A DNA stretch of 46,243 bases, from IMG/VR virus record IMGVR_UViG_2537562192_000013; one strand, given 5' to 3'. Shown here one piece after another: positions 36,001 to 39,000 of the stretch (the first letter of the stretch is position 1; each line of letters begins with the position of its first letter). The position numbers are program-made. This stretch comes from a virus (lineage: Duplodnaviria; Heunggongvirae; Uroviricota; Caudoviricetes).

Positions 36001-39000
36001 TATAAGCCCCTGGACTCCAGTTCTTCAGCCTGGCGGGTCAGGCACAAAATCACCCGGGGATCGTTAGTGCCGACATAGAAATTGCGCACAGGTCTGGTTT
36101 CACGAACTGGTTGTGGTTCCGGTTCCTGCGCTCTCTCAGTCAGGCGCGGGAAATGTCTGCGTGTATCTCCTTCACAACGGTGAGCCACACGCCCGCTCTG
36201 ACGTAACTTGCTTGCTGACTGCAGAACGCGCTGCCGTGAGTAACCTGCAAAAGCATCCGCAATGTCTCCGGAAGTACACCCCGGATGGGCTTCAATGAAT
36301 TTCTGAACGTCATTCAAAAGACTCATGATCACCCCCTGAATCCTGCCGGGATCTGGCTGTAGTCCACGTTGTCGTAACTGGCTTTGAAGTACGGGTCCTC
36401 GCGTCTGGCTGCAGATACCGCAGGAACTTCCCAGGATTCTTCGAAATGACGATCCGGACCAAAGAACGTGACAGCCTGTTTCACAAATTGTGTGCCGCTA
36501 TTGCCCATCGCAGATACCCAGCCCGCGTAGCGTTTCACACCTTCCAGCATGGTTTCGGGGTTTACCCCCTCGTTCAAACGGGCTTTCCAGGCTTTGAAGG
36601 CTGCTGATTTTGAATTGCCACCAGCACGTTTGGGATATTCCTGCCAGGCCTGTTCAAATTCCGGTGAATATTCCTGTCGGGCAGAACGCGCTGGCGCAGA
36701 CGCGTCAGCGGATGCATCAATAGTGTTTTTAGTCTCCGTTGTAATCTCTGTAGTAATCTCTGTATTTGTATCAACATTCGGCGTATCCCCTGTTCCGTTA
36801 TGACGTCGGGGGGTGTTCCGTTTTAACGTAATAGCTGTATCGCTGATTGCATTATTGCTGTTACTTTCTGGCGAAACAGAAGAAGGTGTGGTGATGGCCG
36901 CAATTGCCTGTGGGTTGATCCCGACAAACAAAATATTGCTGCATTTCACCCCATCGAGCATTTCCACCGTGCGTAAATCCAGAGTAATAAACCCTGCATC
37001 GCGCAGACGCTTCAGCGCATCTGCGGTTTCCCTTTTCCCGAAACCAAACTGCTCAGCAAACGCCTGGTAGCTTCTTTGCAGTTTGTCGCCCTGAAAACGC
37101 TTGCGATATCCCAGCAACGCTCCGGTGTGCTCATCCCTGACCTCTGTCGGGCGGTACCAGTAAACGATCTCTGAAAGCAGAGCGATAGCCGTCGCATCCG
37201 GACGCCCACTGGGTAGTCGAATATATTTCCACCAGGTCGCAGGTGTAACATTGCCGGAAATATTAATTTGACCAATAGCCATAACTTCCGGTGTGGGGGC
37301 GTAACGGCTCATACAACCTCCTTCCGCAGCATGAGAATTGTGTAGCCACGCGCAGGTTGTAGTCTGGCTTTTGCATCAATAGTAAGCGTTGCAATTTTTC
37401 GGATATGAAGATAACCAGCTCTTTCCAGTGCCAGGGTTTCCCTGAATATCGCTTGCTTAGAACAACAGCAGAAATCAGCAAGCACCTGATGATCAATAAC
37501 TCTCTCGCCTTCACCGTCTGAAGAACCCGACATCAAAACACGCAACATAATCAGGCGCTGAATCGGGTTATCGAAAGCACATCCGCACACAAACTGAAAA
37601 CAGTTCACGCCACACCTCCCAGACGCTTAAACATTTTTCCGGAGCAAAAGGCTATAAGCGGCATACTGACGCGGTAATTACGGCCCAGCGGTTCACAAAT
37701 CACCTTCTGACATTCACGGTCAACCAGGCTAACACGTAGAACATGCCCTGCAGGCGTGGTGTACCACTGACCCGGGCGAGGACAACGGAAAGTCTGATCG
37801 GTAAACCGTTTGAAAATATTCCGGATCATTTGCGCCCCCTTACCTCTGAAGGGTTCAGTGTCATATTGATTAGGCTGGAAATCGCAGCAGCATCGTTGAT
37901 ATGGTCATACAGGCTTATAGCCAGCGGAGATTCCACTTTGGCCAGCATGGGATAGAGTTGTTGCAGCCAGACCTTGTGGATTACCGACAGGTGGGAGTAA
38001 AGCACGCTGGCGTTATGTGCGGCATCGCTCAGCGTGGATGGCTTTGAAAGCTGCTTTTCCATCTGGTTAAAGGCGTTGATGTACGCCTCTTTAAACCGGG
38101 CGGCGCGTTTGCCAGTGAAGCCCATTGCCAGGAACGCGAAGCCGTCGCGGGTTATTTGATAGCAAGGAAGTTTGCGAGTACCGCCGTTGGGCTGGCGTAC
38201 CAAAATTGATGTCTCCGCAAAATTGCGGGCACAAAACTCTGGAGAACAATCCAAAATGCGGATCTTTTTCAGAACATCGTCATGACGTTTAGAGAAAAAG
38301 TCAGCAACAGCCAAAGAAGATGTAACAGCCTGACCATCAACGATGGCAATTTCAGGTTGAGAGAGGGTTGGGAGAGTAGTCATAGTGACAGCCCCGGTAG
38401 TCAGTTTTTTAGAAAACTCACCACATGGGACGCCAATCACAGAGGTGGTGAGACGTACAGGGTTGGCGTTACCGGAGACTACCGAACCCGGCCCGACCGA
38501 AGTCGGCCCTGTACGCCCCACCATAATTTGGGCGTAGTAATGCTCATGACACGAAAAAACCGCATGAGCGCGGTTATGCTCAGTAATCAATTTCAGGACG
38601 CCAATCCCGGCACCCGTTTTATAAGGTGCCTGAACAGTGTAACGTCCCGGAATTGCAGAATCAATATGCTGGTGGTCCTTCACACTCAACAAAATCACGC
38701 CTGAATTTCCACAAAGGACTAAAGCACTCATGCGGGTAGTCTTTGCGAAGATAGATAACGCGCTGTGTTTCTGGCTCCCAACGAATAACATGAACATAAA
38801 GTCCTCTTCCGTCACGAAACCAGCGGTTAAGTTCCTGCACAACTCGCCCCCCACAGTCAGGTAAAGTTCTCTGTGGTTACTTACAGCCAGGTGATTTGGT
38901 AATCTGCATTCATGCCGTAACAACAGGTGTGCAGCGACACTGACCACCAGCTGTTGCGACAAACGGTTATTTGCCGTTAAACTGTTCATGCGTTAGTTTC

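What the first reader, a model, noticed from the sequence alone, without database searches (positions are those of the whole stretch)
37826..38989. Rha-domain regulator carrying an unusual ~200-aa N-terminal extension
The Rha (ORF6N) signature lies in the C-terminal half of a 387-aa frame that is open and translationally coupled (ATGA) to the upstream gene, whereas Rha domains are usually N-terminal. This may be a fusion protein, or two genes merged by loss of a stop codon. Its position is where lambdoid phages carry replication or cII/cIII-type functions.
Basis: partly seen in the sequence, partly recalled or inferred. Interest (0 to 1): 0.35.

Follow-up and report, generated by a model that had tools for sequence, protein, structure and literature searches.

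The report
Antirepressor gene hiding an RNA switch
The 200-residue "extension" on this prophage Rha antirepressor is not a protein domain: it is a reading frame kept open across a small-RNA immunity switch (IsrK plus C4), as in the eta/kil genes of satellite phage P4, so it is a known kind of arrangement that genome annotation mislabels.

Summary
A 387-codon frame (37826-38989, minus strand) is open. Its ATG overlaps the stop of the cII-like ymfL gene (ATGA), and the Rha domain lies at residues 223-312.

The first 202 codons are not a protein domain. They overlie four things:
- a DUF4222 gene in another frame, which is under purifying selection;
- a promoter-like site;
- an IsrK sRNA with its terminator;
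- a C4 antisense RNA.

The C4 loops are complementary to sites in IsrK and to sites next to the Shine-Dalgarno of the internal ATG at 38383. These sites co-vary across at least 7 alleles. Substitution ratios in the extension are about 1-2, against 0.23 for Rha.

Even so, the frame is stop-free in 40 of 43 related modules, while the other two frames hold 114 and 204 stops. The same layout occurs in phage P4, where eta is the long ORF, kil is nested in it, and Pfam Phage_ASH matches the overlap.

Best reading: an eta-like bridge ORF with a nested, C4-controlled 185-aa Rha antirepressor. This is a new member of a known kind, annotated in RefSeq as one 387-aa protein with no RNA genes. Translation of either form was not tested.

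The parts
38986..39537 (-). Upstream cII-like gene (YmfL / Phage_CP76, 183 aa). Its TGA stop overlaps the ATG of the long frame (ATGA).
   Evidence: ORF list. Pfam PF06892 at 53.7 bits. RefSeq name ymfL. pN/pS 0.27 in its own frame.
37826..38989 (-). The 387-codon open frame of the finding, read here as an eta-like 'bridge' ORF. Codons 1-112 are the positional and partial sequence counterpart of e14 YmfM. Codons 117-212 match Pfam Phage_ASH. Codons 203-387 are Rha.
   Evidence: The frame is stop-free in 40 of 43 unique modules. P4 eta has the same layout.
38661..38840 (-). 59-aa DUF4222 gene (GTG start) in a different frame, lying inside the 'extension'.
   Evidence: Pfam PF13973 at 51.1 bits. 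phrog_1343. pN/pS is 0.13 in its own frame and 1.98 in the ORF387 frame. Against K-12 the values are 0.31 and 1.51. Annotated separately in phage 1720a-02 and E. coli C3.
38636..38664 (-). Candidate sigma-70 promoter of isrK (equivalent to P4 PLE): TTGATT (38664-38659), 17-nt spacer, TACACT (38641-38636). It ends 7 nt before the IsrK 5' end.
   Evidence: Read from the sequence. It matches 8 of 12 consensus positions, below the scanner's threshold. Conserved in position across alleles. It reads TTGACA-N17-TATATT in L086 and in Gifsy-1, where PisrK was shown experimentally.
38553..38629 (-). IsrK / P4 seqA-like sRNA. It carries b1 (TTGGCGT, 38604-38598) and a1 (GATTACTG, 38588-38581) and ends in an intrinsic terminator (stem 38575-38558 plus a U-run).
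   Evidence: Rfam RF01394 at 60.1 bits (gathering score 50). Terminator scan. Rfam c4-a1b1 hit at 38590-38642, 21.7 bits, below its gathering score. a1 pairs preferentially with its own allele's a' loop.
38441..38528 (-). C4 / P4 CI-type antisense RNA. The a' loop is GTTCGGTAGTCT (38487-38476) and the b' junction is ACGCCAA (38469-38463). The ATG at 38524-38522, equivalent to the orf45 start, lies in its 5' stem and is in frame with Rha.
   Evidence: Rfam RF01695 at 82.3 bits (gathering score 45). Across 14 alleles 99.2% of cells are paired and 13 of 27 pairs show compensatory change, against 35-48% paired in slid controls.
38392..38436 (-). Target region of C4 in the mRNA: b2 (TTGGCGT, 38436-38430), a2 (GACTACCG, 38402-38395), and the SD-like GGGG (38395-38392), 8 nt before the Rha ATG.
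   Evidence: Alignment of 35 alleles. Duplex energies of a' with its own allele's a2 are -10.3 to -18.9 kcal/mol, against mostly -2.5 to -8 for other alleles' a2. In other alleles a2 overlaps a GGAGG or AGAGG Shine-Dalgarno.
37826..38383 (-). Nested 185-aa Rha-family protein, the likely antirepressor and the cargo of the cassette.
   Evidence: Pfam Phage_pRha at residues 21-110 (95.4 bits). TIGR02681. PHROG anti-repressor and Rha families. pN/pS 0.23. Homologs annotated from this start.
37605..37829 (-). Downstream 74-aa gene, ATGA-coupled to the Rha stop. In tandem-cassette relatives its first codons supply the start of the second bridge ORF.
   Evidence: phrog_1153. L043, L009, L063 and L072 bridge ORFs begin MIRNIFK... 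or MIR....

Best explanation
The locus is an RNA-controlled antirepressor cassette of the P4 / P1 / Gifsy-1 type, embedded in the early operon of a lambdoid prophage. The 387-codon frame is the counterpart of P4 eta: a bridge reading frame with a shorter gene nested in its 3' end.

Shown at the sequence level:
1. An internal promoter-like site precedes a 77-nt IsrK (P4 seqA-like) sRNA that ends in an intrinsic terminator.
2. An 88-nt C4 (P4 CI-like) antisense RNA follows.
3. The C4 a' loop and b' junction are complementary to a1/b1 inside IsrK, and to a2/b2 just upstream of the ATG at 38383. There a2 abuts the Shine-Dalgarno.
4. The 185-aa Rha protein starts at 38383.

Inferred, by analogy with P4 (PMC10111431, citing Forti 1999), Gifsy-1 (PMC4825925) and P1:
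5. Transcripts from the internal promoter mostly stop at the IsrK terminator. Read-through transcripts yield C4.
6. C4 pairs with a2/b2 and blocks Rha translation, which may also cause premature termination ahead of the replication genes.
7. IsrK, carrying a1/b1, can titrate C4 or the C4 segment and turn translation on.
8. When the early (PR-type) promoter fires, ribosomes leaving ymfL re-initiate at the ATGA and translate the whole 387-codon frame. This carries them through the IsrK terminator, C4 and a2/b2, so antirepressor synthesis and downstream transcription escape the RNA immunity.

On this reading the extension matters as a path for ribosomes, not as a folded domain. Products of about 43 kDa (from 38989), possibly about 25 kDa (from the ATG at 38524), and 20 kDa (from 38383) are all conceivable.
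For: RNA genes:
- C4 scores 82.3 bits and IsrK 60.1 bits, both above Rfam gathering scores.
- Both are found above gathering score at the same distance from the cargo ATG in all 13 related loci scanned, and in P4.
- C4 structure: 99.2% of cells paired and 13 compensatory pairs.

Specificity:
- a1, a' and a2 co-vary three ways, with at least 7 specificities. b1, b' and b2 fall into two classes, and one allele is a recombinant.
- Each a' loop pairs best with its own allele's a1 and a2: the duplex-energy matrices are strongest on the diagonal.

Internal start:
- An SD (GGAGG, or GGGG here) lies 8-9 nt before the ATG and is overlapped by a2.
- The Rha domain is N-terminal in the 185-aa product.

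No domain in the extension:
- pN/pS is 1.24 (promoter-IsrK), 0.90 (C4 and linker) and 1.98 (over DUF4222), against 0.23 for Rha and 0.13 for DUF4222 in its own frame.

Frame kept open:
- 0 stops, against 11 and 20 distinct stop sites in the other two frames.
- 40 of 43 unique modules have no stop, with frame totals of 5, 114 and 204.
- Indels between C4 and the ATG are multiples of 3.
- Independent duplication junctions are all in frame, and the bridge ORF opens at, or a few codons after, the preceding gene's stop in nearly every context examined.
- P1, which has no upstream read-in, has stops in this frame inside c4.

P4 homology:
- The P4 ORF 8168-8812 spans the IsrK-like and C4 hits and ends with the 65-aa kil. 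It shares the GGAGGCTGCCATCATGGCTAC start motif, starts at an ATGA overlap with orf88, and matches Pfam Phage_ASH end to end.
- ORF387 residues 117-212 match the same Pfam model.

Experimental precedent:
- Eta translation prevents termination and is coupled to the upstream gene (PMC10111431).
- In Gifsy-1 orf45 translation is needed for anrP translation, and a fused orf45-anrP of 287 aa was noted in S. dysenteriae (PMC4825925).

Operon context:
- Six consecutive gene junctions from cro to the PerC-like gene are 4- or 8-nt start/stop overlaps; the next, PerC-like to Dam methylase, is a 34-nt overlap. The chain is unbroken only if ORF387 is read at full length.
Against: - No expression data for this locus exist. 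Translation of the long frame, of the 47-codon in-frame leader, and of the short form are all untested here.
- The internal promoter matches only 8 of 12 consensus positions and fell below the scanner's threshold.
- The SD of the Rha ATG in this allele is weak (GGGG).
- If translated from 38989, the long frame must cross the DUF4222 gene in another frame. That is awkward, and the true start of any long product could lie later, for example TTG 38689 as annotated in phage 1720a-02.
- The alleles are related, so the stop-codon statistics overstate independence.
- The 5' third (38989-38841) gives an ambiguous pN/pS of 0.42 from only 29 substitutions.
- In Gifsy-1 the frame is closed just upstream of orf45, so a spanning ORF is not obligatory for the cassette.
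- Antirepressor activity of this Rha protein is inferred from family names only.
Confidence: 0.6

Rival explanations
1. Annotation artefact only. The frame upstream of 38383 is never translated. Only the 185-aa Rha (and DUF4222) are made, and the open frame is a by-product of conserved RNA sequence and shared ancestry.
For: - The extension is fully accounted for by a DUF4222 gene, a promoter-like site and two RNA genes.
- No amino-acid constraint is seen.
- The Rha ATG has its own SD under C4 control.
- Some relatives separate the frames.
- The alleles share ancestry, so the counts are not independent.
Against: - The in-phase frame has 0 stops, while the other frames have 11 and 20 distinct stop sites, many of them in the allele-variable loops and spacers.
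- In P1 the same RNA family has stops in this frame, so the RNA itself does not forbid them.
- Several different duplication junctions and a roughly 500-nt insert (L052) all keep the frame open.
- The P4 equivalent, eta, is reported to be translated with a regulatory effect.
- The antisense 140-aa ORF is not conserved, so this is not a shadow of an opposite-strand gene.
Confidence: 0.22
2. A genuine multi-domain protein. The N-terminal 200 residues (a YmfM-like part plus the Ash domain) fold and add a function to the Rha domain, for example a regulatory or cell-division-inhibiting module.
For: - Pfam Phage_ASH matches residues 117-212 (40.6 bits, cut-off 26).
- PHROG families model the fused ORF (phrog_821).
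- RefSeq annotates it as one protein.
- The e14 counterpart of the first 112 codons, YmfM, is reported to inhibit cell division when the ORF is overexpressed (10.1101/2020.11.19.390815).
- PMC10111431 lists Phage_ASH among 'Bro network' domains.
Against: - pN/pS is about 1-2 across the extension.
- The Ash match coincides base for base with IsrK and C4, so the sequence conservation is explained by RNA structure.
- The same extension precedes unrelated cargo: Rha, a 67-aa protein, and P4 Kil.
- The frame relation to the cargo shifts in L086 and Gifsy-1.
- The YmfM-like part has almost no residue conservation between e14, the Salmonella-type allele and this window, whereas DUF4222 embedded in it is conserved.
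Confidence: 0.1
3. A recent accident. A separate leader ORF (orf45 / Ash) and Rha were merged in this lineage by loss of a stop or by a frameshift, leaving a defective or deregulated gene.
For: - Stop-separated, ATGA-coupled arrangements exist in L086 and Gifsy-1.
- The Gifsy-1 paper describes a fused form as an exception.
Against: - The in-frame arrangement is the rule. It holds in 40 of 43 unique modules, across at least 7 RNA specificities, in E. coli-type and Salmonella-type prophages, and in P4.
- The Rha part is under purifying selection (pN/pS 0.23).
- The cassette is present in part in 3222 of 5426 complete E. coli genomes.
Confidence: 0.05

Closest known systems
Satellite phage P4 immunity region: PLE - seqA - cI (CI RNA) - seqC, with the nested genes eta (197-199 aa) and kil (65 aa)
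   Same: - Same RNAs: Rfam IsrK at 60.8 bits and C4 at 74.9 bits in P4.
- Same order and spacing.
- The long ORF starts at an ATGA overlap with the upstream gene, crosses the internal promoter, IsrK/seqA and C4/CI, and ends with a shorter gene in the same frame.
- The nested gene's start carries the same GGAGGCTGCCATCATGGCTAC motif as most Rha alleles; this window's own allele reads GGGGCTGTCACTATGACTAC at that position.
- Both long ORFs match Pfam Phage_ASH over the RNA region.
   Different: - The cargo is a 185-aa Rha-family protein, not Kil.
- The host element is a lambdoid prophage, with the cassette between cII/ymfL and the replication genes.
- The bridge ORF is longer and also crosses a DUF4222 gene.
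- The Rho-dependent terminator timm and the upstream regulated promoter of P4 have no demonstrated counterparts here.
Salmonella Gifsy-1 isrK - orf45 - anrP locus (Hershko-Shalev et al. 2016, PMC4825925)
   Same: - Same IsrK and C4-type RNA. The 'orf45' region is the C4 gene, and STnc1160 is its processed ~80-nt form.
- Same ATG at the 5' end of C4.
- The cassette controls translation of an antirepressor.
- IsrK-complementary sequences lie downstream.
   Different: - In Gifsy-1 the leader frame is only 45 codons, closed by a TGA just upstream, and it ends in ATGA on anrP (coupling). Here it is in frame with the cargo and open for 202 codons.
- AnrP is an ORF6N protein that is not homologous to this Rha (blastp E = 0.8; Pfam).
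- The Gifsy-1 cassette sits next to antQ in the late region.
Phage P1/P7 immI operon: c4 - icd - ant1/ant2
   Same: - A C4 antisense RNA with a'/b' elements, and a1/b1 and a2/b2 targets flanking it (P1 annotation).
- The antisense RNA blocks a ribosome-binding site and so controls antirepressor synthesis.
- Allelic a/b specificities resemble the P1 versus P7 difference (the P1/P7 difference is from my own knowledge, not from a tool result).
   Different: - P1 has icd between c4 and ant, and the target is the icd RBS. Here the target is the antirepressor's own RBS.
- P1 Ant is an ANT/KilAC protein.
- P1 has no spanning ORF: there are stops in this frame inside c4 and 11 codons before icd.
'Bro-network' genes of PICI / HE-PICI satellites that contain C4 and isrK hits (PMC10111431, 2023)
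   Same: That paper already states that immunity RNAs are encoded within Bro-network genes, lists the Phage_ASH and Phage_pRha domains among them, and summarises the eta logic.
   Different: Those are satellite elements. This is a full lambdoid prophage early operon. The stop-codon, pN/pS and allele-covariation evidence given here was not part of the passages I read.
E. coli K-12 e14 ymfL-ymfM
   Same: The first ~112 codons of ORF387 are the positional and partial sequence counterpart of ymfM: both begin MNSLT..., are ATGA-coupled to ymfL, and overlap a DUF4222 ORF in another frame.
   Different: e14 lacks the IsrK-C4-Rha cassette. YmfM stops 10 nt before ymfN.

Membership tests
Rha family (Pfam PF09669 / TIGR02681) | Match to the Rha domain model above the curated cut-off | tested here: met
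   PF09669 scores 93.8 bits (cut-off 29.9) at residues 223-312 of ORF387, which is 21-110 of the 185-aa product. TIGR02681 scores 90.8 bits (cut-off 45.95)..
Rha family (Pfam PF09669 / TIGR02681) | Antirepressor or regulatory activity | not testable with these tools
   Only family names are available: PHROG 'anti-repressor' and 'Rha-like transcriptional regulator', and the P22 rha annotation.
C4 antisense RNA (Rfam RF01695; P1 C4 / P4 CI) | Covariance-model score above the gathering threshold, over the full model | tested here: met
   82.3 bits against 45, model positions 1-87, at 38441-38528 on the minus strand.
C4 antisense RNA (Rfam RF01695; P1 C4 / P4 CI) | Secondary structure supported by compensatory changes | tested here: met
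   Across 14 alleles 99.2% of cells are paired and 13 of 27 pairs change on both sides. 0 of 500 shuffles reach this, and slid controls give 35-48%.
C4 antisense RNA (Rfam RF01695; P1 C4 / P4 CI) | Two loop elements (a', b') complementary to target pairs upstream (a1, b1) and downstream (a2, b2), with the downstream pair at a ribosome-binding site | tested here: met
   Sites located. Co-variation across at least 7 a-specificities and 2 b-classes. Each a' loop pairs best with its own allele's a1 and a2. a2 abuts or overlaps the SD of the ATG at 38383.
C4 antisense RNA (Rfam RF01695; P1 C4 / P4 CI) | Processing from a longer transcript, and translational repression in vivo | not testable with these tools
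   Needs Northern blots and reporter assays. An ~80-nt processed species is reported for Gifsy-1.
IsrK sRNA (Rfam RF01394; P4 seqA region) | Covariance-model score above the gathering threshold, with an intrinsic terminator at the 3' end | tested here: met
   60.1 bits against 50. Terminator stem 38575-38558 plus a U-run.
IsrK sRNA (Rfam RF01394; P4 seqA region) | Own promoter immediately upstream | tested here: inconclusive
   TTGATT-N17-TACACT ends 7 nt before the 5' end of IsrK. It matches 8 of 12 consensus positions and was not reported by the scanner. Its position is conserved, and it is near-consensus in L086 and Gifsy-1.
Gifsy-1 isrK-orf45-anrP arrangement | A short leader ORF (orf45) whose stop overlaps the antirepressor start (AUGA) | tested here: not met
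   Here the equivalent ATG (38524) is in frame with the Rha ATG, with no intervening stop. The AUGA form is seen in L086 and Gifsy-1.
P4 eta/kil nested-gene arrangement | A long ORF that starts upstream of the internal promoter, coupled to the preceding gene, spans seqA/IsrK and CI/C4, and contains the short gene in the same frame | tested here: met
   ORF387 starts at an ATGA with ymfL and spans 38664-38441, with Rha nested in frame. The P4 layout was verified.
P4 eta/kil nested-gene arrangement | Match to Pfam Phage_ASH (PF10554) over the RNA-overlapping part | tested here: met
   ORF387 residues 117-212 score 40.6 bits (cut-off 26). P4 Eta residues 37-161 score 82.2 bits over the full model.
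P4 eta/kil nested-gene arrangement | Translation of the long ORF from an upstream promoter suppresses immunity-dependent termination | not testable with these tools
   Reported for P4 (citing Forti 1999; that paper is not held). Only indirect support here: the frame is kept free of stops.
P1 immI operon (c4-icd-ant) | An icd-type ORF between c4 and ant whose RBS is the C4 target, and an Ant protein of the ANT/KilAC type | tested here: not met
   Only 57 nt separate C4 from the Rha ATG and there is no icd. P1 Ant1 is PF03374 ANT, whereas this protein is Phage_pRha.

The most novel reading that the evidence does not exclude
The 387-codon frame, and with it the database 'families' Phage_ASH and YmfM, may be a ribosome-transit ORF. 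On this reading selection keeps it free of stops only so that ribosomes arriving from the early operon can run through an embedded, independently transcribed RNA-immunity cassette. That would override the IsrK terminator and the C4 block and deliver antirepressor and replication-gene expression during lytic growth. The peptide sequence itself would be irrelevant. The cassette exists in many interchangeable RNA specificities and sometimes in tandem, which would give lambdoid prophages a P1/P7-like second immunity layer.
Probability: 0.45. Interest if true: 0.5.

Novelty: new member of a known kind. Interest (0 to 1): 0.33.

Why it matters
Annotation. RefSeq, GenBank phage records and PHROGs carry this frame as a 383-402-aa 'Rha family regulator' or 'antirepressor'. 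They carry its middle part as 'ash family protein', and no RNA genes are annotated there. Part of the region matches 3222 of 5426 complete E. coli genomes, including Stx-converting phages. Anyone expressing the 'full-length' protein, or building domain architectures from it, would be working with a translated promoter, terminator and two regulatory RNAs.

Biology. The locus suggests that many lambdoid prophages control an antirepressor through a P4/P1-type antisense RNA with exchangeable specificities. It also suggests that a reading frame can be conserved for the act of translation rather than for its product. That bears on induction, on cross-talk between co-resident prophages, and possibly on Stx-phage induction.

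Tried and rejected
- Scan of genome contigs with the pattern ATTATGGTGGGN{58,72}CCACC. The pattern was too loose for 596 Gb. No conclusion was drawn from it.
- Duplex folding of whole C4 against whole target regions. It was uninformative because the C4 stems were allowed to unfold. I replaced it with loop-only calculations. In one search the a1b1 segment was mis-extracted by a regular expression that caught the promoter; this was corrected.
- The Forti et al. 1999 P4 paper (PMC94026) is not held. The P4 mechanism is cited from the summary in PMC10111431, from my own recollection, and from my check of the P4 sequence.
- NCBIfam has no hit for the extension.
- The idea that the open frame is the shadow of the antisense 140-aa ORF (38282-38704, plus strand) was rejected. 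That ORF is broken into 42-81-aa pieces in L043 while the sense frame stays open.
- The idea that the cargo is the same as Gifsy-1 AnrP was rejected.
- Not done, because the selection statistics already argue against a folded domain: structure prediction of the extension and the large protein-database searches.
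Full report
**1. The observation**

The frame is real. On the minus strand, 37826..38989 is open for 387 codons. Its ATG overlaps the TGA of the preceding 183-aa gene, reading ATGA. That gene is a Phage_CP76 / YmfL cII-like protein.

Pfam places Phage_pRha at residues 223-312, and TIGR02681 places it at 214-316. The internal ATG at 38383 yields a 185-aa protein with the Rha domain at residues 21-110. That is the normal N-terminal position: tblastn matches to Rha proteins from P22, Paenibacillus, Vibrio, Lactobacillus and other phages mostly start at query residues 9-22.

The window is 100% identical to a prophage of E. coli 2012EL-2448. RefSeq annotates the whole frame there as one 'Rha family phage regulatory protein' and annotates no RNA gene. 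Phages Stx2a_1447 and mEp460 carry 383-aa equivalents. Phage 1720a-02 is annotated with a 287-aa version plus a separate 59-aa gene.

**2. What lies under the 'extension'**

An Rfam scan of 36000-41500 gave two hits above gathering score on the same strand as the ORF:
- C4 antisense RNA at 38441-38528: 82.3 bits, gathering score 45, full model.
- IsrK at 38553-38629: 60.1 bits, gathering score 50.
- A sub-threshold hit to the 'a1, b1 targets of C4' model overlaps IsrK.

IsrK ends in a terminator-like hairpin plus a U-run. TTGATT-N17-TACACT precedes it and ends 7 nt before its 5' end. This is a weak consensus match that the scanner did not report. It sits where Gifsy-1 has its experimentally defined isrK promoter, and where the divergent allele L086 has TTGACA-N17-TATATT.

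Further upstream, 38661-38840 encodes a 59-aa DUF4222 protein in a different frame.

Pfam also reports Phage_ASH for ORF387 residues 117-212. Those residues translate nucleotides ~38641-38354, which is exactly the IsrK-C4 region.

**3. Related loci**

A scan of viral contigs with the 185-aa protein returned 80 loci. Four hits from annotated records added 1720a-02, Stx2a_1447, mEp460, and an E. coli remnant, L086.

Segment-wise BLAST showed a mosaic. The segment between ymfL and DUF4222, and DUF4222 itself, are 97-100% conserved within the E. coli group. IsrK and C4 fall into discrete alleles. Rfam finds both RNAs above gathering score in all 13 related loci scanned.

The alignment of 35 distinct upstream regions shows the signature of an antisense system:
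- The C4 hairpin-2 loop (a') is complementary to a sequence in IsrK (a1) and to one just 5' of the Rha ATG (a2).
- All three change together. The cores are GACTACCG here, and TCACCAAAGA, GTCAACGGAG, GCATACGGA, GTTATCGGA, TCAACATAGA and a seventh elsewhere.
- A second element (b', b1, b2) has two classes, TTGGCGT and GTGGAAA. One allele (L062) recombines an a of one type with a b of another.
- Loop-only duplex energies favour each allele's own targets. Own-allele values are -10.3 to -18.9 kcal/mol for a' with a2, and -11.5 to -15.7 for a' with a1. Values for other alleles' targets are mostly -2.5 to -8 against a2 and about -3 to -10 against a1.
- In most alleles a2 overlaps a GGAGG or AGAGG Shine-Dalgarno 8-9 nt before the ATG. 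In this window the equivalent is GGGG (38395-38392).

The C4 fold is supported by covariation over 14 alleles, including P4, P1 and Gifsy-1. 99.2% of cells are paired and 13 of 27 pairs carry compensatory changes, against 35-48% paired in slid controls.

The ATG at 38383 is therefore a regulated translation start with its own ribosome-binding site. It is the target of the antisense RNA encoded 57 nt upstream.

**4. Is the extension a protein domain?**

I compared the window with a Salmonella-type allele (L064) and computed pN/pS by segment and frame.

| Segment | Frame | pN/pS |
|---|---|---|
| ymfL | own | 0.27 |
| Rha | own | 0.23 |
| DUF4222 | own | 0.13 |
| DUF4222 nucleotides | ORF387 | 1.98 |
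| Promoter-IsrK | ORF387 | 1.24 |
| C4 plus linker | ORF387 | 0.90 |
| First 146 nt | ORF387 | 0.42 (12 synonymous and 17 non-synonymous changes; not decisive) |

Against K-12 e14, at 59% nucleotide identity, DUF4222 gives 0.31 and the overlapping frame gives 1.51.

The same extension precedes unrelated cargo: Rha here, a 67-aa protein in E. coli C3, and Kil in P4. The extension therefore carries no detectable amino-acid constraint. The Ash 'domain' is conserved because the RNAs are.

**5. Yet the frame is kept open**

- In the 290 nt upstream of the cargo ATG, the in-phase frame has no stop in 34 of 35 distinct alleles. The other two frames have 1-5 and 2-8 stops per allele (0 and 4 in the exception, L086), at 11 and 20 distinct alignment sites. 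A rough binomial gives P of about 3e-6, which is inflated by relatedness.
- Over 43 unique modules the stop totals by frame are 5, 114 and 204. The only modules with a stop in this frame are P1, Gifsy-1 and L086.
- Indels between C4 and the ATG are 3 nt long.
- Tandem-cassette loci (L009, L043, L044, L063, L065, L072) have several different junctions. All are in frame. In most of them the second long ORF borrows the ATGA- or TAAATG-coupled start of the downstream 74-aa gene.
- In L052 the frame stays open for 269 codons across an unrelated insert.
- In L086 a 7-nt deletion shifts the relation. There the same frame over IsrK-C4 is open, and it ends in ATGA on the Rha start. It is annotated as a 91-aa 'ash family protein' plus a 185-aa Rha.
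- P1 is a useful control. Its immI operon has its own C1-controlled promoters and the same RNA family, but this frame has stops inside c4 and 11 codons before icd.
- The opposite-strand 140-aa ORF is not conserved.

**6. The precedent**

Barquist et al. 2013 identified IsrK and C4 as structural homologs of P4 seqA and CI RNA. They noted such systems in lambdoid Salmonella prophages (PMC3632133).

In the P4 genome the minus-strand ORF 8168-8812 has these features:
- It starts with ATGATGATG overlapping the stop of orf88.
- It crosses the IsrK-like hit (8615-8692) and the C4 hit (8420-8507).
- It ends with the 65-aa kil, whose start carries GGAGGCTGCCATCATGGCTAC. That is the motif seen at most Rha starts.
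- It matches Pfam Phage_ASH end to end (82.2 bits).

This ORF is eta. PMC10111431, summarising Forti et al. 1999, states the following. A constitutive promoter inside eta gives transcripts that terminate early through CI/seqA interactions. Kil is translated on occasional read-through. Full-length Eta is translated only from an upstream promoter. [quoted passage not shown] Its translation prevents termination, so that downstream genes are expressed.

For Gifsy-1, Hershko-Shalev et al. 2016 showed several things (PMC4825925). isrK read-through RNA carries orf45-anrP. orf45 translation is needed for anrP translation. IsrK in trans activates it. An ~80-nt processed RNA (STnc1160) derives from 'orf45'. 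In S. dysenteriae orf45 appears fused to anrP (287 aa).

I confirmed in the Gifsy-1 sequence that orf45 is the C4 gene read in the same frame. It is closed by a TGA immediately upstream and ends in ATGA on anrP. AnrP is an ORF6N protein unrelated to this Rha.

**7. Interpretation**

ORF387 is best read as the lambdoid counterpart of P4 eta, with a Rha antirepressor nested where kil sits.

Shown here:
- the RNA genes;
- the complementary, co-varying target sites at the Rha ribosome-binding site;
- the lack of amino-acid constraint in the extension;
- the conservation of the open frame;
- the homology of layout with P4.

Inferred:
- C4 represses Rha translation from internally initiated transcripts.
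- IsrK counteracts C4.
- Ribosomes coming from ymfL on early-operon transcripts translate the long frame, and so override the terminator and the C4 block.

One further point is consistent with the inference. Six consecutive junctions in the early operon, from cro to the PerC-like gene, are 4- or 8-nt start/stop overlaps. The gene ranges are 39790-39530, 39537-38986, 38989-37826, 37829-37605, 37608-37309, 37312-36329 and 36332-35838. The following junction, PerC-like to Dam methylase (35871-35185), is a longer 34-nt overlap. The chain is continuous only if the 387-codon frame is read.

Which polypeptides accumulate (43, about 25, or 20 kDa) cannot be decided without experiments.

**8. Verdict**

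The oddity is a known regulatory architecture, not a novel fusion protein or a decayed gene pair. The locus is a new, well-populated member of a known kind. Its main practical consequence is a widespread annotation error. Its main open question is whether the long frame is translated, and what that does to prophage induction.

Noticed in passing
window 38661-38840 (-) ; L088 (E. coli K-12 NC_000913) 3323-3681: K-12 e14 ymfM is annotated 'cell division inhibitor YmfM'. It is the counterpart of the first ~112 codons of ORF387, and it contains an unannotated 59-aa DUF4222 ORF (TTG start, Pfam 67.3 bits) in another frame. The DUF4222 frame is under purifying selection (pN/pS 0.13-0.31). The YmfM frame is not (1.5-2.0). 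A text search of the ymfM preprint, which cloned the ORF in pBAD24, found no frame-specific control. The filamentation phenotype could therefore belong to DUF4222.
   Followed up: partly
L087 (P4) 8168-8812 (-); window 38354-38641 (-): Pfam Phage_ASH (PF10554), RefSeq 'ash family protein', and PHROG families such as phrog_6928 ('transcriptional repressor', hit by the Ash part of this ORF) and phrog_821/995/3960 model translations of the IsrK/seqA-C4/CI RNA region. The amino-acid 'conservation' coincides with RNA structure. The old P4 'cI gene product (AA 1-137)' CDS is still in the RefSeq record.
   Followed up: partly
L009 1410-3058; L043 1395-3058; L044 1392-3058; L063, L065, L072: Some prophages carry two IsrK-C4-Rha cassettes in tandem with different a/b specificities. 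The second bridge ORF usually starts with the first codons of the downstream 74-aa gene (MIRNIFK...). This looks like repeated in-frame duplication or recombination of the cassette.
   Followed up: partly
L052 1553-2363: One relative keeps the bridge frame open for 269 codons. The stretch crosses a remnant of a Rha C-terminus and about 170 codons of seemingly unrelated, AT-rich-looking sequence. I did not examine why that insert has no stop in this frame.
   Followed up: no
window 35185-39790 (-): The early operon from cro to the PerC-like gene is a chain of genes whose starts overlap the preceding stops by 4 or 8 nt; the last junction, PerC-like to Dam methylase, overlaps by 34 nt. The genes in order are cro, ymfL, ORF387, a 74-aa gene, a 99-aa gene, a replication-initiator-like gene, a PerC-like gene and a Dam methylase.
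   Followed up: no
window 38282-38704 (+): A 140-aa ORF runs antisense to the whole IsrK-C4 region and the Rha start. It is also present in L064 but is broken in L043, so it is probably a shadow ORF.
   Followed up: partly
window 39790-39888: The divergent region between the cro-like gene and the S24 repressor gene contains inverted repeats, TTGCGTGA...TCACGCAA and TTGCGC...GCGCAA, around a TTGCGC-N17-TAATAT promoter-like site on the minus strand. These are candidate operators and PR. I read them by eye only.
   Followed up: no
phage records H58-H64 and H96-H110: Many Stx2a-converting phages carry a more distant Rha (48-56% identity), and their DNA is similar (about 74% identity) to the L086 query spanning IsrK, C4 and the start of Rha, at about 13.5-16.7 kb in their records. 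I did not check whether C4 control of an antirepressor operates there.
   Followed up: no
window 38416-38426 (-): Just after b2 there is a mini-ORF, ATG-TGG-TGA. Its GGTGGTGA is complementary to the 3' strand of the C4 closing stem (TCACCACC), and GGTGGTG is conserved in all alleles. It may form an alternative helix like those described for Gifsy-1. I did not analyse it.
   Followed up: no
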